A DNA stretch of 64,000 nt from a virus. Position numbers and translations under genes: made by a program. Positions within the stretch are counted from its first letter, which is position 1, and every line of letters begins with the position of its first letter. Shown piece after piece: positions 4,202-12,916 of this stretch. Under the pieces are notes generated by a model. It worked only from the letters and a program-made list of their open reading frames with translations, made no database searches and was not told the DNA's origin. Location: positions 1 through 64,000 of IMG/VR virus record IMGVR_UViG_3300029286_002355; one strand, 5' to 3'.

Positions 4202-5389
4202 TTATCCGTTTAGTCTGACGTACTCTTTATTCAATTCTATTTGTTGCAGCAAAATATGAAGTTCGTGACCCATATTTCCTCTTGCCTTAGCTTCATACAT
4301 CTCATAAAACGGTTCCCAAGCAAATATTTTCTTTCTAGCCAACATTTTTGTAAGGAAATCACTTCTCCCCTGTAGCCATTTACCTTCGAATTCGTTTTTG
4401 GTTAAGCCACTGTTCTTTAGATACTCTTCTTTAACCCTCTTAACATAATTATCGTAACCATCAACGTCTGAAGCCAATACCAGCAAATCAATACTGGAAA
4501 ACCTTTCTTCAAGTTCGGTTTTATATTCGCAAGTTTCATGTTTGGTTGAAGCAATAAGAGTCTTAACTAATTCACGACTTTTTTCATCACAGCGAAGCAG
4601 CCTTATATGTGCATAACTCATACAATCATCTACTGTCGCAAAAACGTCATGCAACCAAAAAGCCATTTCAACTTCGAAACGTTTATCTATCGTGGCCATA
4701 GAATCGAATGTTTCCAAGCAATTTAGGATGTGATTGATGTTATGATAAGCGTTTGAATTCATTCCTTTTATTCTCAACCACATTTCTTCTCTGACATTTG
4801 GAGATGGCGGAACATTAAATCCCATTTCTCCATTTACTAATTTCATAAAACGCTTTTCGGCATATTGAGTAACTAGATAATCCAAGGTAAGCGGAGAAAC
4901 ATATTGCTCCACAACTTTTCGCCACCCTCTTTGTCCTACCAATCCCTTAACCCAAGAAGAACTAACCAAACTTAAAGCTTCATCGGGCATTAAATAAAGC
5001 GTTTCTACGGATGGCTGAATAATCTTGTTGGTATGGTAAATCTGATTCTCGTAATGAAAATCCATAGAATCTCGAATGCCACGAACCAGAAACTTTGCCC
5101 CTATCTCCTTGGCAAAATCTACTAGATAGGTTGTGTCAGGTAGAGTTTGAATAACCACATTGTTTTCTTGGACTCCTGCAATATATTGAATGGTGTCTCG
5201 CAGCATTTCAACTCTGTCTTCAATAGGGAAGGAAGGCGTTTTATTTACGTTAGTTGCAACAACAATATGGAGTTTATCAAAAACAGAACAAGCTTTCTTG
5301 ATAATTTGAGAATGGCCCAAGGTGCAAGGGTCAAAAGTTCCTCCATAGGCGGCAATAAGTTCTCCAGAGTTATTCATATTTTCCCTCAC
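4202..5389 (-). CDS. coaD: phosphopantetheine adenylyltransferase fused to an HD-superfamily phosphohydrolase domain
   Basis: AYGGTFDPCTLGH and LVRGIRDSMDFHYE (CoaD motifs); C-terminal YHNINH..LHDV..TKH..DLLVLA (COG4339-type HD domain). Confidence 0.88.
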   Translation of the reverse strand: MRENMNNSGELIAAYGGTFDPCTLGHSQIIKKACSVFDKLHIVVATNVNKTPSFPIEDRVEMLRDTIQYIAGVQENNVVIQTLPDTTYLVDFAKEIGAKFLVRGIRDSMDFHYENQIYHTNKIIQPSVETLYLMPDEALSLVSSSWVKGLVGQRGWRKVVEQYVSPLTLDYLVTQYAEKRFMKLVNGEMGFNVPPSPNVREEMWLRIKGMNSNAYHNINHILNCLETFDSMATIDKRFEVEMAFWLHDVFATVDDCMSYAHIRLLRCDEKSRELVKTLIASTKHETCEYKTELEERFSSIDLLVLASDVDGYDNYVKRVKEEYLKNSGLTKNEFEGKWLQGRSDFLTKMLARKKIFAWEPFYEMYEAKARGNMGHELHILLQQIELNKEYVRLNG

Positions 5390-7127: not shown

Positions 7128-7319
7128 TCACTTGATTTTTACTTCGGGAGATTTATCGTTTTCGGTTTCAATATCTTCAAGCAAACACCATGGCGGAAAC
7201 TCTTTTGCTTCGTCTTCTTTTGAAAAATACTTATTGCTCTTCTCGCAAAATCCACCGGCCAAGTAACCAAACTTATGTAGAATACATTGGTGGCAACTTA
7301 ATATGGGTAAATATTTCAT
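7128..7319 (-). CDS. small Cys-rich hypothetical protein
   Basis: CHQC..FCEK..WCLL. Confidence 0.6.
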   Translation of the reverse strand: MKYLPILSCHQCILHKFGYLAGGFCEKSNKYFSKEDEAKEFPPWCLLEDIETENDKSPEVKIK

Positions 7320-7795
7320 TTTATCTCCAATAGTTCTTTTAGTTGTTTAATAGTTATGCTAGAAACATCAGATATCCTACTACCCTTGCATTTACTACAG
7401 GTTACTTTCTTTTCTCCGTTACATTTCCTACATGGCCCATCATAAGACTCTACGCCGTTGGGTGATCCATATTCAAACCATCCCTTAACATGCTCTTTAC
7501 CTTTACCGTTGCAGACATAGCAAGTTTCTTTACCATCTGTACAATCACATTTTTCTTTTCCAATAACTTTTATCGCAAAGTCTTCAGGGTTAAGACTGCT
7601 TTTGACAGGTTCAACTTCTGAAAAATGTATTCCCAAATGACTACCGAACATTAATCCTTCTCCATCAATGGCAATACTTTCTACCTCTTCCTCGTCGCCT
7701 TTATAATGCCATATCTCACCATAAGCATCCCGAATGTCGTGTAGTATTTTAACTGTATCTCCAACCTTATAGGGGTTTTTCTTATGGGGTTTCAT
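7316..7795 (-). CDS. protein with DnaJ-type CxxCxGxG zinc-finger repeats
   Basis: CYVCNGKG, CRKCNGEK, CSKCKGS. Confidence 0.7.
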   Translation of the reverse strand: MKPHKKNPYKVGDTVKILHDIRDAYGEIWHYKGDEEEVESIAIDGEGLMFGSHLGIHFSEVEPVKSSLNPEDFAIKVIGKEKCDCTDGKETCYVCNGKGKEHVKGWFEYGSPNGVESYDGPCRKCNGEKKVTCSKCKGSRISDVSSITIKQLKELLEIK

Positions 7796-8031: not shown

Positions 8032-8047
8032 ATATCTCCCTATTTAA

Positions 8048-8107
8048 AAACCGTGCCTTGCCTTGCCCTGCCTAGCCGCCCCAGTGCTTGCCTCACCGAA
8101 CCTGACC
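8048..8107 (-). ncRNA. GGY-NN pentamer array B (candidate VIPR-type guide RNA)
   Basis: Minus strand GGTCA GGTTC GGTGA GGCAA GCACT GGGGC GGCTA GGCAG GGCAA GGCAA GGCAC GGTTT: 12 units, 10 start with GGY; intergenic. Confidence 0.75.
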
Positions 8108-8110
8108 ATT

Positions 8111-8386
8111 TCATTTTAAAGCTTCACTTGCCACTGGATGTATTCCCGTTCCTTTACACCCACTACAAGGGCAATCATCATAAGGATAAGGATCGGGCTG
8201 TTTACCACTCCCTTGACAGGAAGGACATTTAATAGATGCCAAAGCCTTTCTTAGCTTTTGTATTTCTTCTGTTAGTTTTTTAATTTCTTTTGCTGCTTCT
8301 TCCGCCAAAGGGTCTCCGGGTGACAAATCCAATCCTATTGAACCTGCCTCTACAAGTCTATCAATTAAATCATTGTGAATGCTCAT
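8111..8386 (-). CDS. small protein with coiled coil and CxxCxGxG zinc finger, between the two pentamer arrays
   Basis: CPSCQGSG..CSGCKGTG; ATG follows array A directly and the stop precedes array B. Confidence 0.7.
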   Translation of the reverse strand: MSIHNDLIDRLVEAGSIGLDLSPGDPLAEEAAKEIKKLTEEIQKLRKALASIKCPSCQGSGKQPDPYPYDDCPCSGCKGTGIHPVASEALK

Positions 8387-8387
8387 A

Positions 8388-8447
8388 AAACCGTGCCTTG
8401 CCTTGCCATGCCTCGCAAAAACGCACCTTGCCTAGCCATGCAACACC
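8388..8447 (-). ncRNA. GGY-NN pentamer array A (candidate VIPR-type guide RNA)
   Basis: Minus strand GGTGT TGCAT GGCTA GGCAA GGTGC GTTTT TGCGA GGCAT GGCAA GGCAA GGCAC GGTTT: 12 units, 9 start with GGY; begins 6 nt after the RAMP gene stop. Confidence 0.75.
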
Positions 8448-8453
8448 TCGAAA

Positions 8454-8984
8454 TTAATCAATCTTTTCGAAACTCAACATCTTACTTCTTCCGTAAAGTC
8501 CCTTATTGGCGGGACGGAAATCCATGAGCCCAACTTTCTTACCCATGTCTTCAATCACTTGTTTAACCTGCTCAATATTCATCATGGTTTCATCCCACTC
8601 AATACCAAAAGTAACTTTCCAACTATCAATTCTGGGACGATGACGCATAACTCGCCCCCTTGTTGAAGGAATAACCACAGGCCTCGAATCAACGGAATAC
8701 CTTTCTGTTCCCAAACCAACATATTCTGGCTCAACCATCAAGCAAGCAGCAACAGTTTTTTGAAGAGATGCCCGGCCTTTGCCCTTACTGTATGCAGCGG
8801 CCCCAACTAGTGCTCTTTGAATGTTGATGCCGGGAATATAAAGCTCTCTTGACCCCGGAATTCTATAGGCAGCAATTTCGGCTTGCTCTTCTTTGGGTTT
8901 CTTATCTAATCCTTGAATTGGAGTGTCTGGAAACCGATTCATTAATAGTGCCGAAGTACCTTCTATCGTTACTTTTGCCTTCAT
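8454..8984 (-). CDS. stand-alone RAMP/Cas7-like protein (Vipr-like)
   Basis: N-terminal beta strand VTIEGTSALLMN, LYIPGINIQRALVGAA (RAMP IPGSSxKGAxR-like), C-terminal Gly-rich loop GLMDFRPANKGLYGR; start moved to ATG 8984 after AAGGGAG. Confidence 0.75.
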   Translation of the reverse strand: MKAKVTIEGTSALLMNRFPDTPIQGLDKKPKEEQAEIAAYRIPGSRELYIPGINIQRALVGAAAYSKGKGRASLQKTVAACLMVEPEYVGLGTERYSVDSRPVVIPSTRGRVMRHRPRIDSWKVTFGIEWDETMMNIEQVKQVIEDMGKKVGLMDFRPANKGLYGRSKMLSFEKID

Positions 8985-9411: not shown

Positions 9412-9450
9412 GGTATACCTATTATAACTGATTCGAAGTATAAATCAATA

Positions 9451-9873
9451 TCAATTACGCTTTTTTTTACCCCTCATACATATTGAAAAATCAGTAGGCT
9501 TTTTAGAAACCCATGCTACCCATTTTCGAATTTCAGGATGAGAACAAATAGCCTCTGGAGTATTATAGGTAGACCTTAACTCCTTTAGTGATAACAACTT
9601 ATGAATTTGGTCTCCGCATGAAACACAAACATGAATGGTTTCTTTACCTTTCATTGAGCGTGGGATGAGATGATGATGTTCCCAACAATCTTCTGGGACT
9701 TCTCTTTTACAAATAGGACAATGAGTTAACTCTTCTTCTTCGTATATTGGGCAAGCTTCTTTGGTACAGAAACATTGGAAATCAATACTACACCCGCTTC
9801 CAAGATCGCATATGGCCCATCCCAGTTTATCAGTCCATCCGTGCTCACATTCGATTTCTTCGTAAAATTTCAT
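9451..9873 (-). CDS. HNH endonuclease
   Basis: CPIC..HHHLIPRS..CVSCGDQIH. Confidence 0.75.
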   Translation of the reverse strand: MKFYEEIECEHGWTDKLGWAICDLGSGCSIDFQCFCTKEACPIYEEEELTHCPICKREVPEDCWEHHHLIPRSMKGKETIHVCVSCGDQIHKLLSLKELRSTYNTPEAICSHPEIRKWVAWVSKKPTDFSICMRGKKKRN

Positions 9874-10021: not shown

Positions 10022-10561
10022 CTATTTGCTGACTTCGTTTGCTTCTTTGTTTTCTTCAGGTATTTCAGATTGCAGAATTTTTTCTATGGTTAGTGGGCCT
10101 TCTTCTTTATATTTTTCAATTTGGCGTTGGATTTCTTCTAAGGTAAGTCCATGCCGATTACGTTCAGCTAATTCTTCTGGTTTCTTCCCGCCAGTTCCAA
10201 GATCCACAATTTTTACTTCATAGCCATATTTTAATGCAGCTTCAACATATCGTTTAGAATTCCACGCCCGAATACCAAGATTATCTATGACAATAGGCGT
10301 TCTACCTTCCCGCATGGCATTTATCGCCCTCTTTAGATTATTCTTAGAAACGGCAACCAAAGGAGTGTAATTGTCTTGTTCCTTCATCTTTGCAAAAAAA
10401 GCTATATATTCTTCGTCATTGTTAGAAATAAGATCGTCGGAAGAGAATATATTTTCTGGAACCACTCCGGGTAAATTTCTAGAGGCTGTACTTTTACCAC
10501 TTCCTGAAATTCCACGAAGTAGGAAGAGGATTTTTTTTTGCGATAGCCTATACCAGTTCAT
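10022..10561 (-). CDS. P-loop kinase (AAA_33, polynucleotide kinase-like)
   Basis: LLRGISGSGKST, IVIDNL, RNRHG. Confidence 0.8.
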   Translation of the reverse strand: MNWYRLSQKKILFLLRGISGSGKSTASRNLPGVVPENIFSSDDLISNNDEEYIAFFAKMKEQDNYTPLVAVSKNNLKRAINAMREGRTPIVIDNLGIRAWNSKRYVEAALKYGYEVKIVDLGTGGKKPEELAERNRHGLTLEEIQRQIEKYKEEGPLTIEKILQSEIPEENKEANEVSK

Positions 10562-11439
10562 GCTATTTCCTTGTAGAACTTTTCTCTAAATTTCTTGTCA
10601 TAAAATTCCGTAAACGTTATCTTATCTTCTTCATATAGTTTTGTTAAATCTCCTGTTGACAATTTTGGTATATCAACCATTTGATAAATAAGACCTTTTT
10701 TATTACAAAACTTTTCAGCAGCCTCCCTTTTCAGTTTATTAGAAGGAGTATTAAATAGTTTTTTTGGTTTGCATTCTATCAAGTATTTATCTTCTACAAA
10801 AAAGTCGGCTCTATACGTTCTTCTAGTACCGTCCCAGTTTACATATTCTATAGTTAAATCTTTTCTTTCAGCCGATATCCACTTTTTATTTTCTTTTTCT
10901 ATTATATTAATCATGTAAGATAGTTCTAAAATGCTTCTGAAATACCATTTGTTATACCAACCGCTCCATCCGTTTCCTGCCCCATGAGGAGAACATTTGC
11001 CAAACATGGAATTTTTTTCACCACTGTTATTTATAGATTGCTTTTTTCTATAGGCATCCATTTTTCTGTCTGCCTCTTCTTTGCCATATTTTTTTACCCA
11101 CTGTTGATATACGGTTTTTCCATACATCGGATTATTTTTACCTTGAGCGAGTTTAGTAAGTAATTTGATTCTTTCTGGTGATTTAAGATAAGCGTAATCT
11201 CTTGCCCTTAATACCGCTTTTGTTTCTTCTGTGTGGTGTTTACCCTCAAAGCCATTAGGATTATTTTTGGCATATTCTCTAAATTGTTTTGTTCTTAGTT
11301 TATGTATTTCTGGTCTATTGTTGATTTCGGAAGCGGAACAAGATCTACATGGTCTATTATTTACTTTGGAATTATAGTGGGAATGATATGATGAATAAAT
11401 GAGTTCTTTCCCACATTTAGGGCAATTTCTGGTATACAT
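10558..11439 (-). CDS. free-standing homing endonuclease: NUMOD3 repeats plus TnsA-like PD-(D/E)xK domain
   Basis: GKHHTEETK, KNNPMYGK, FRSILELSY..YRADF..LIECKP. Confidence 0.75.
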   Translation of the reverse strand: MYTRNCPKCGKELIYSSYHSHYNSKVNNRPCRSCSASEINNRPEIHKLRTKQFREYAKNNPNGFEGKHHTEETKAVLRARDYAYLKSPERIKLLTKLAQGKNNPMYGKTVYQQWVKKYGKEEADRKMDAYRKKQSINNSGEKNSMFGKCSPHGAGNGWSGWYNKWYFRSILELSYMINIIEKENKKWISAERKDLTIEYVNWDGTRRTYRADFFVEDKYLIECKPKKLFNTPSNKLKREAAEKFCNKKGLIYQMVDIPKLSTGDLTKLYEEDKITFTEFYDKKFREKFYKEIA

Positions 11440-11854: not shown

Positions 11855-12916
11855 TTAGTTAACAAACGCCTCATTACATTTCGGCATTTGATTTTCTAAT
11901 CTGAGGATATCAGTGTTCCTCTTAGTATTATCTCTGTCTAATACTAAATGACCATTGCCTTCAGTGTTATTCAATAATTCAAATGCCGCTATATTAAAAG
12001 CGGCATTTGAATCCGCATGGTCAGCGTGTCCACAACTAACACATTTGAATACTTTTCCATTCCTGTTTCCTATAACTCCACATCTACTACATTTTTGACT
12101 AGTATATGCAGGATTGATATAGACAACTGGTATTCCTAATATTTTGGATTTGTATTCTATCATGGTTTTAAGCTGATAGAAACTCCAACTATTTAAGGAG
12201 TACTTGAATGACGGTTGTGTTTTCTTATTTCTCTTTTCTCTAATTTGCGTTAAGTCTTCCAACTTAATTCCACAATTATTCTTTTGAGCAACTTGAACTA
12301 TCTTTCTACTAATCTCATGGTTCAAATTCTTAATTCTGTTTTGTTCTCTTCTCTTGATTTTCTTTAGTTGATATTTTGCTCCTTTCTTTTGTAGTTTTGT
12401 TCTCAGGTTCTTATATTTTAAGTGAAGATGATTTGCTTCTTTTCCTAATTTGATAACCTTTTTGGTTTTAGGAATTGCTACAACTGCACAATGACCAGTA
12501 GTATTTAAGTCCACTCCGATATAATCTTTAACTTTCATTTCCTGCTTGTTAGGCACTTCGCAGGAAATATAGCAATAGGTATTATCAACCTCTATCTGAT
12601 TGATTTTAGTGAAGTTGTTTGGAAATTGATATTGAAGCTCTAATTTAATTACTGAAACTTTGATTGTCTTAGTTTCTTGATTTACTTTAATACCTTGGTT
12701 TGGAATGGTTAGTTTAACAGATTTGATTGACTTACACTTTTTGTTCTTTGAATACTTTTTTAGGATTTGGTTAGATATTTGTGACTTTAGACCGAAGTGT
12801 TTTACGTCCTTAGAACTTCTAGATTTTGTTTTGATAGCAAAGGAAGCAATTTTTCTAGCAATATTCAATTCGCTAGAAAAATCTTTGTCGTGCTTCACTT
12901 TGTAGGTTAATATCAT
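11855..12916 (-). CDS. tnpB: TnpB RNA-guided nuclease
   Basis: GVDLN, LEDL, AYTSQKCSRC..CVSC..HADSNAA. Confidence 0.92.
   Translation of the reverse strand: MILTYKVKHDKDFSSELNIARKIASFAIKTKSRSSKDVKHFGLKSQISNQILKKYSKNKKCKSIKSVKLTIPNQGIKVNQETKTIKVSVIKLELQYQFPNNFTKINQIEVDNTYCYISCEVPNKQEMKVKDYIGVDLNTTGHCAVVAIPKTKKVIKLGKEANHLHLKYKNLRTKLQKKGAKYQLKKIKRREQNRIKNLNHEISRKIVQVAQKNNCGIKLEDLTQIREKRNKKTQPSFKYSLNSWSFYQLKTMIEYKSKILGIPVVYINPAYTSQKCSRCGVIGNRNGKVFKCVSCGHADHADSNAAFNIAAFELLNNTEGNGHLVLDRDNTKRNTDILRLENQMPKCNEAFVN

What the first reader, a model, noticed from the sequence alone, without database searches (positions are those of the whole stretch)
8048..8984. Stand-alone RAMP/Cas7-like gene with two GGY-NN pentamer arrays: candidate compact RNA-guided (VIPR-type) system
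Seen: the 176-aa gene 8454-8984 has RAMP-like hallmarks (N-terminal strand, LYIPGINIQRAL, C-terminal Gly-rich loop) and no other cas gene or CRISPR array lies in the window. Six bases after its stop is a 60-nt run of twelve pentamers (8447-8388); a second 60-nt, twelve-pentamer run lies at 8107-8048. Most units start with GGT or GGC (9/12 and 10/12) followed by a variable dinucleotide. Both arrays end in the same 21 nt (GGCAAGGCAAGGCACGGTTTT). They are GC-rich islands in an AT-rich genome and I saw no other copies. Established: Cas7/RAMP proteins polymerise on guide RNA with fixed periodicity. From memory of recent literature, not checked here, this layout matches viral interference programmable repeat (VIPR) systems, where GGY is scaffold and NN encodes a gapped target. 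Inference: an RNA-guided DNA-binding or repression module aimed at competing phages or the host.
Basis: partly seen in the sequence, partly recalled or inferred. Interest (0 to 1): 0.95.

Follow-up and report, generated by a model that had tools for sequence, protein, structure and literature searches.

The report
Phage VIPR system: Vipr plus two guides
This 186-kb phage carries a small VIPR system (a CRISPR-related, RNA-guided DNA-silencing system first described in 2026 preprints), made of one Cas7-like protein gene and two 60-base guide-RNA genes; it is a new example of a known kind and its targets remain unknown.

Summary

- **Arrays.** The two 12-pentamer GGY-NN arrays (8447-8388 and 8107-8048) are the only ones in the 186-kb virus record. 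They fill the gaps between genes on the gene strand.
- **Relatives.** All 38 IMG/VR loci and all 4 Logan loci that encode homologs carry such arrays. In 34 non-redundant loci there are 81 runs on the gene strand and none on the other strand.

VIPR is already in print (bioRxiv 10.64898/2026.04.26.720920, .720927 and 2026.10.15.759431). This scan's index already holds 212 earlier notes with the VIPR search words, from at least 162 other genomes. I therefore rate it a new member of a known kind.

This clade differs from the studied type II systems in three ways:
- no conserved accessory (vap) gene;
- no structured 3' tail; instead the last 3-4 units have a near-constant A-rich NN;
- short, partly degenerate arrays that sit between small genes.

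No convincing target was found under the published 1-nt-skip rule. A 22/22 match in Gemella genomes is compatible with chance. Expression could not be tested.

The parts
8454..8984 (-). vipr gene: 176-aa single-RRM RAMP/Cas7-like protein (Vipr homolog)
8388..8447 (-). vrRNA-A array: 12 pentamers, 9 GGY. NN code is GT-AT-TA-AA-GC-TT-GA-AT, then the constant AA-AA-AC-TT.
   Evidence: It fills the gap between the vipr stop codon and the next ATG. No significant secondary structure (z -0.52).
8048..8107 (-). vrRNA-B array: 12 pentamers, 10 GGY. NN code is CA-TC-GA-AA-CT-GC-TA-AG, then the constant AA-AA-AC-TT.
   Evidence: No significant secondary structure (z -0.55).
8387..8407 (-). Constant 21-nt 3' end of array A (three GGCAA/GGCAC units, then GGTTTT): candidate 3' handle
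   Evidence: Exact duplicate of 8047-8067. Relatives also end their arrays in A-rich constant units: NN entropy is 2.7 bits at units -2 and -3 against 3.7-3.8 bits further 5'.
8047..8067 (-). Constant 21-nt 3' end of array B
8111..8386 (-). 91-aa DnaJ-type zinc-finger ORF between the two arrays. It is interleaved cargo and is not shown to belong to the system.
   Evidence: phrog_6060 scores 5.4e-10; the Pfam Anti-TRAP and DnaJ_CXXCXGXG matches are below their cut-offs. No homolog lies next to vipr in 42 related loci.
9421..9448 (-). Candidate sigma-70-type promoter upstream of the co-directional gene run that holds vipr and both arrays
   Evidence: Consensus match only, 10 of 12. No terminator-like site between it and the arrays.

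Best explanation
This is a VIPR (Viral Interference Programmable Repeat) locus of a large AT-rich phage: one vipr gene followed by two guide-RNA genes (vrRNA-A and vrRNA-B), embedded as spacers between genes in a single co-directional gene run.

Mechanism, inferred by homology with SUSP1 VIPR:
1. The run is transcribed on the minus strand.
2. One Vipr protomer binds each pentamer. It holds G1, G2 and Y3 through the G-loop (D155, F156, R157) and the thumb (R116). About 12 protomers build a helical filament on about 60 nt of RNA and expose the NN dinucleotides.
3. Host RNases probably trim the unprotected flanks.
4. The NN pairs read double-stranded DNA, skipping every third base (the NNx code). 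This forms a gapped R-loop that blocks transcription of a competing mobile element or another target.

No nuclease or other conserved partner gene is linked, so silencing is more likely than cleavage. The last 3-4 units have a fixed A-rich NN in this clade and probably act as a handle in place of the pseudoknot tail of type II vrRNAs.

Shown here: the fold, the homology, residue conservation, array anatomy, and co-occurrence of gene and arrays across the clade. Inferred: transcription, processing, filament assembly, DNA binding, silencing and the handle role.
For: 2. Homology to characterised Vipr proteins. The profile hit to PDB 36pp_D 'SUSP1 Vipr protein' (E 3.9e-8) is the only significant one. 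BLASTP to the SUSP2 protein gives 7e-11 and to the Pseudomonas phage LESphi2 protein 2e-18. My scanner finds GGYNN arrays beside both of those genes.
3. Contact residues. SUSP1 R138, D177, W178 and R179 (paper .720927) align with R116, D155, F156 and R157. R116 and R157 are invariant in alignment A2, and D155 is nearly so.
4. Arrays. Two 12-unit arrays match the published 9-16 YNNGG units and the 12-repeat vrRNA used for cryo-EM. They are far above chance.
5. Co-occurrence. 38/38 IMG/VR loci and 4/4 Logan loci with homologs carry arrays. In 34 non-redundant loci (196 kb) there are 81 runs on the gene strand and 0 on the opposite strand; 90.5% of 1,549 units are GGY. NN is near-random in the 5' units and constant in the 3' units.
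6. Virus context. The record is an IMG/VR virus record estimated 82% complete.
7. No self-target above a permuted-guide null, as the paper reports for its own systems.
Against:
- The arrays are more degenerate than the clade average: 75-83% GGY against 90.5%. Two or three of the eight variable units are broken.
- SUSP1 H17, which contacts G1, is N16 here; the clade consensus is H.
- There is no ~40-nt structured tail as in type II.
- No promoter or terminator is specific to the arrays.
Confidence: 0.87

Rival explanations
1. A decaying or inactive VIPR remnant. The vipr gene is intact, but the two short arrays have drifted and no longer guide anything useful.
For: Only 9/12 and 10/12 units are GGY, against 90.5% in the clade. 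Each array has two or three broken internal units. The G1-contact His is Asn here.
Against: The protein keeps all 41 columns that are invariant across the 36 homologs. The 21-nt ends of the two arrays are identical, which argues for recent selection or gene conversion. The closest AT-rich relative with DNA (76% identity) also has short, partly degenerate arrays between small genes, so this is the local style of the subclade. The VIPR paper reports frequent internal degeneracy of vrRNAs.
Confidence: 0.08
2. An active Vipr-vrRNA complex that acts on RNA (binding or masking transcripts) rather than on double-stranded DNA.
For: The closest solved folds are the RNA-targeting Csm3 and type VII Cas7. 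SUSP1 VIPR can form a vrRNA-RNA duplex in vitro. This clade has a shorter helical-bundle insertion than type II (alignment A2), and in SUSP1 that bundle holds the skipped DNA base and the non-target strand.
Against: In the studied systems full filaments and silencing need DNA and the triplex. A basic loop at the helix-1 tip (SKGKGR, invariant in the clade) is well placed to clamp a non-target strand, like K82/K88 of SUSP1. No catalytic Asp of the Csm3 type was tested.
Confidence: 0.04
3. The pentamer runs are not guide RNAs. They are ordinary G-rich leaders between genes (translation or mRNA-stability elements) that happen to lie next to a RAMP-fold gene.
For: The arrays abut the start codons of the downstream genes, and the constant end supplies an AAGG-type purine run upstream of the ATG at 8386.
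Against: Arrays accompany the homolog in 42/42 loci whatever the downstream gene, always on the gene strand. They occur nowhere else in the 186-kb record. The same repeat is the experimentally shown ligand of homologous proteins.
Confidence: 0.01

Closest known systems
Type II VIPR of Escherichia phage SUSP1 (and SUSP2) - bioRxiv 10.64898/2026.04.26.720920 and .720927; PDB 36pp
   Same: A single small RAMP protein with an RRM core, thumb and G-loop. The G-loop keeps the D-aromatic-R-P motif and the thumb keeps its Arg. The vrRNAs are about 12 GGY-NN pentamers on the gene strand beside the gene. The locus is phage-encoded, with no CRISPR array and no other cas genes.
   Different: Only 26% identity in the alignment, with local BLASTP similarity over 49 aa. 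The helical-bundle insertion is shorter. There is no vap1 homolog anywhere in the record. There is no ~40-nt pseudoknot tail; the 3' end is made of constant A-rich pentamers. The arrays fill short gaps between genes instead of long intergenic regions.
Pseudomonas prophage VIPR (P. fulva clade; here represented by phage LESphi2, OQ594955 gene P21_9)
   Same: 31% identity over the full length (E 2e-18). GGC-rich arrays that end in GGCAA then GGG.
   Different: LESphi2 has three arrays upstream of vipr and a downstream partner gene. The window has its arrays downstream, interleaved with unrelated small ORFs.
Metagenomic ~176-aa Vipr clade: 799 clusters at 90% identity; the profile finds 4,270 representatives at 50% identity across the wider family
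   Same: 55-95% identity. Same array style, same constant A-rich 3' units, and no conserved neighbouring gene.
   Different: Most members sit in GC-richer contigs with longer and cleaner arrays (median 16 units, up to 81). The window and its 76% relative are AT-rich, with short, partly degenerate arrays.
Csm3/Cas7 backbone subunits of type III-A and type VII CRISPR-Cas (for example 6ifk_E, 8yhe_F)
   Different: 11-18% identity. No CRISPR array, no Cas10/Csm partners, a 5-nt rather than 6-nt period, and no second domain.

Membership tests
VIPR system (Vipr + vrRNA) | Sequence homology to an experimentally characterised Vipr | tested here: met
   PDB 36pp_D 'SUSP1 Vipr protein', E 3.9e-8 with the clade profile. 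SUSP2 protein 7e-11 and LESphi2 protein 2e-18.
VIPR system (Vipr + vrRNA) | Residues that hold the GGY motif (SUSP1 H17, R138, D177, W178, R179) | tested here: met
   These align with N16, R116, D155, F156 and R157. Four of five are conserved or conservative. His17 is Asn here, while the clade consensus is His.
VIPR system (Vipr + vrRNA) | Adjacent tandem YNNGG/GGYNN repeats on the gene strand (at least 4 units for calling; typically 9-16) | tested here: met
   Two arrays of 12 units, with 9 and 10 GGY.
VIPR system (Vipr + vrRNA) | GGY conserved and NN hypervariable among related loci | tested here: met
   81 runs in 34 loci; 90.5% of units are GGY; NN entropy is 3.7-3.8 of 4 bits in the 5' units.
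VIPR system (Vipr + vrRNA) | Invariable 3' tail after the repeat tract | tested here: inconclusive
   The two arrays share an identical 21-nt end. It consists of pentamers with constant NN, not a ~40-nt structured tail. The folds are not better than shuffles and there is no Rfam hit. In relatives only GG is common after the last unit (33 of 81 runs).
VIPR system (Vipr + vrRNA) | Accessory vap gene next to vipr (typical, but not universal) | tested here: not met
   No neighbouring gene is shared with 42 related loci. No vap1 homolog in the record. The paper lists seven types but six vap genes and mentions stand-alone genes, so a type without vap exists.
VIPR system (Vipr + vrRNA) | vrRNAs are expressed and co-purify with Vipr | not testable with these tools
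VIPR system (Vipr + vrRNA) | Natural targets found by the 1-nt-skip rule (at least 80% NN match) | tested here: inconclusive
   Only exact-pattern scans of the collections were possible. Full-length patterns gave no hit in viral or metagenome contigs. Relaxed patterns gave chance-level hits.
VIPR type II (SUSP1 / P. fulva) | Close Vipr phylogeny, vap1 partner and pseudoknot tail | tested here: not met
   26-32% identity in the alignment, no vap1 and no structured tail. The locus belongs to another type. By elimination a type without vap, possibly type I; the figures that define the types are not held.
CRISPR-Cas (class 1) | CRISPR repeat-spacer array and further cas genes beside the Cas7 | tested here: not met
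   No CRISPR-like tandem repeats in the window. A single RAMP gene in the record. The neighbours are small phage ORFs, an AAA_33 kinase and homing-endonuclease-like genes.

The most novel reading that the evidence does not exclude
vrRNA-A is aimed at a bacterial gene rather than a rival mobile element. All 22 NN positions of its units 1-11 match, under the 1-nt-skip rule, a site in three Gemella species genomes. The site lies between an FMN riboswitch aptamer and the start of an ECF-transporter S-component gene (probably a riboflavin transporter). On this reading the phage would silence a host vitamin-uptake gene by RNA guidance.
Probability: 0.04. Interest if true: 0.7.

Novelty: new member of a known kind. 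Interest (0 to 1): 0.3.

Why it matters
VIPR is a very recent class of RNA-guided DNA-binding systems and is proposed as an ancestor of CRISPR RAMPs. This locus adds a compact example: a 176-aa protein and two 60-nt guides with no partner gene and no structured tail. They are packed as spacers between genes in a large AT-rich phage.

It belongs to a large metagenomic clade (799 clusters at 90% identity) in which the last three or four repeat units are constant. If those units serve as the handle, the minimal requirement for a working VIPR guide may be nothing but pentamers. That is relevant to engineering small programmable repressors and to understanding how vrRNAs are matured.

None of this changes the known picture of the class.

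Tried and rejected
1. **Close relatives by single sequence.** The search for related loci with the protein alone found nothing in viral contigs. The alignment was needed.
2. **Closest relative.** The contigs of the 95% relative P0001 have no DNA on hand, so guide turnover between near-identical phages could not be compared. Only the gene order was seen, and it looks similar.
3. **Self-targeting.** The best NN matches in the 186-kb record were 19/24 for A and 17/24 for B, within the permuted-guide null.
4. **Targets in viral and metagenome contigs.** Exact 22-position patterns for A and B gave 0 hits in both collections.
5. **Relaxed B pattern (18 positions).** Three hits, two of them independent. 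The open units do not match and the site holds an in-frame stop.
6. **Relaxed A pattern (20 positions).** No hit in viral contigs. In genome contigs it hit three Gemella MAGs and one Bacteroidales MAG.
   - The Gemella site matches 22/22. It lies between an FMN riboswitch and an ECF S-component gene.
   - My rough expectation for a 22/22 hit in 596 Gb is about 0.1-0.3.
   - vrRNA-B has no match with 3 or fewer mismatches in those genomes.
   - The phage is noted elsewhere to carry diderm-type envelope genes (unchecked note).
   - I therefore treat the Gemella match as chance.
   - The Bacteroidales hit (20/22) is in wobble phase inside a chemoreceptor gene and is also at chance level.
7. **Variable units only (16 positions).** 43 hits for A and 9 for B. 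They spread over many unrelated sequences. There is no excess of wobble phase (15 of 40 ORF assignments) and no excess of matches to the constant units.
8. **Relatives as targets.** No match to relatives' vipr loci above the null.
9. **RNA families.** Rfam found no hammerhead or other family in the window region or in 20 related loci. There is no terminator-like site.
11. **VIPR type.** The type (I-VII) could not be read, because the defining figures and tables are not held as text.

Full report
**Observation**

On the minus strand the 176-aa ORF 8454-8984 is followed, 6 nt after its stop, by twelve in-phase pentamers (8447-8388), nine of which start with GGY. This array ends 1 nt before the ATG of a 91-aa ORF (8386-8111). 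Three nt after that ORF's stop a second run of twelve pentamers follows (8107-8048, ten GGY). It ends 16 nt before the next ATG, and those 16 nt hold a ribosome-binding site.

- In 20 shuffles of the window the best 12-pentamer score was 3-5.
- The 21-nt end shared by the two arrays occurs exactly twice, against 0.00 expected.
- The arrays are GC peaks of 0.53-0.65 in a 0.37 background.
- The whole 186,119-base record, an IMG/VR virus record estimated 82% complete, has no further array and no second copy of the protein.
- TRF finds no CRISPR-like repeat in the window.

**The class is published**

A full-text search finds three 2026 preprints on Viral Interference Programmable Repeat systems. 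They describe the following.

- Vipr is a minimal RAMP found by structure search with Cas5, Cas6 and Cas7.
- vrRNAs hold 9-16 YNNGG repeats followed by an invariable tail.
- The NN dinucleotides read double-stranded DNA, skipping one base in three.
- One protomer binds per repeat.
- G1 is held by H17 and D177, G2 by R138 and W178, and Y3 by R179 and helix 1.
- There are seven types and six vap accessory genes, and some vipr genes stand alone.

**The protein**

- Pfam is silent. PHROGs gives an unnamed family, phrog_4652, at 2.8e-16.
- An AlphaFold2 model built from 36 homologs has pLDDT 87.8.
- tblastn against phage genomes gives weak hits in about 100 Felix-O1-like phages, including SUSP2, and fuller hits in a Pseudomonas prophage-type phage and in Gordonia phages.
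- BLASTP gives 39% identity over 49 aa to SUSP2 ALH47200 (7e-11) and 31% over the full length to LESphi2 P21_9 (2e-18).
- The SUSP2 protein carries the published SUSP1 residue numbers.
- The clade profile finds PDB 36pp_D, named "SUSP1 Vipr protein", at E 3.9e-8. Nothing else scores below E 0.3.

In the joint alignment, R138, D177, W178 and R179 of SUSP1 correspond to R116, D155, F156 and R157. H17 corresponds to N16, where the clade consensus is His. The helical-bundle insertion is shorter than in type II, and the tip of helix 1 carries an invariant basic loop.

**Relatives**

The protein has 799 cluster-level homologs at 90% clustering. The profile finds 4,270 representatives at 50% clustering, 1,228 of them at E 1e-10 or better.

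- All 38 IMG/VR loci found with the alignment carry GGYNN arrays next to the gene, upstream and/or downstream, and always on the gene strand.
- The four Logan contigs of the 76% relative, which is also AT-rich, carry several short arrays, each in the gap between small genes downstream of vipr. The window has the same style.
- In 34 non-redundant loci (196 kb) I count 81 runs on the gene strand and none on the other strand. There are 1,549 units, 90.5% of them GGY, with a median of 16 units per run.
- NN entropy is 3.7-3.8 bits in the 5' units. It falls to 2.7 bits at the second and third units from the 3' end, where AA and AG dominate. The window's constant AA-AA-AC units fit this pattern.
- After the last unit only GG is common (33 of 81 runs).
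- No neighbouring protein is shared among the loci, or with the window. The record has no vap1 homolog.
- Positive control: the same scanner recovers the arrays around the SUSP2 and LESphi2 genes.

**RNA features**

Neither array folds better than shuffled sequence (z about -0.5). This fits a protein-coated single strand. Rfam has no match in the window region or in 20 related loci, so no hammerhead-type processing is seen. There is no terminator-like site. The nearest consensus promoter lies about 430 nt upstream of vipr. Co-transcription followed by trimming is therefore inferred, not shown.

**Targets**

Using the published NNx rule I found no self-target above a permuted-guide null. Full-length patterns had no exact match in viral or metagenome contigs. 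Relaxed patterns gave only chance-level hits.

The one notable hit is a 22/22 match of vrRNA-A in three Gemella MAGs. It lies in the leader between an FMN riboswitch and an ECF S-component gene. I judge it compatible with chance, for these reasons:
- for an A/T-rich 22-position pattern in 596 Gb, I estimate 0.1-0.3 such hits by chance;
- vrRNA-B has no match with 3 or fewer mismatches in those genomes;
- an unchecked note of this scan suggests a diderm host for the phage.

The collection scans accept exact patterns only, so the paper's 80% criterion could not be applied there.

**Verdict**

It is not type II:
- identity to type II proteins is 26-32%;
- there is no vap1;
- there is no structured tail.

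By elimination it may belong to the type without a vap gene, but the figures that define the types are not held. This scan's index already holds 212 earlier notes with the VIPR search words, from at least 162 genomes. I rate it a new member of a known kind, with modest interest. That interest rests on three features: the partner-free and tail-less architecture, the constant repeat-type 3' end, and guides that serve as spacers between genes.

Noticed in passing
window 11855-12916 (-): A 353-aa TnpB-like ORF (Pfam Cas12f1-like TNB domain, 3e-24) lies 3 kb from the VIPR locus. It belongs to a second, unrelated RNA-guided protein family in the same phage region.
   Followed up: partly
window 8111-8386 (-) and 7316-7795 (-): Two small proteins with DnaJ-type CXXCXGXG zinc fingers. 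The first sits between the two arrays (phrog_6060 'Q-like antitermination', 5.4e-10). Neither is conserved next to vipr in relatives.
   Followed up: partly
L050:5063-5094 (also L048:2493-2524 and L051:6220-6251): Three Gemella MAGs share a site that matches all 22 NN positions of vrRNA-A units 1-11 under the 1-nt-skip rule. It lies between an FMN riboswitch (L050:5201-5313, minus strand) and the ECF S-component gene 4441-5001. Probably chance (about 0.1-0.3 such hits expected).
   Followed up: partly
L033:3630-4039 (same as L038) and L034:3512-3856: Relatives with uninterrupted in-phase pentamer runs of about 81 and 69 units and no visible boundaries. These may be the 'staggered, overlapping vrRNA' arrays mentioned in the preprint.
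   Followed up: no
L003:115-2682: In one relative the vipr gene and its arrays lie just downstream of a cluster of five tRNA genes.
   Followed up: no
window 9451-9873 (-) and 10558-11439 (-): Homing-endonuclease-like genes lie upstream of vipr. One is a weak HNH_5 match (4e-4, below cut-off) and the other has NUMOD3 plus a TnsA-like nuclease domain. The gene layout of the 95% relative has different gene sizes at this position, so they look like mobile insertions rather than VIPR accessories.
   Followed up: partly
L041:4532-6360: The 76% relative has at least six short arrays of 6-11 units, each in a gap between small ORFs over 1.8 kb downstream of vipr. Arrays as spacers between genes therefore seem typical of the AT-rich subclade.
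   Followed up: partly
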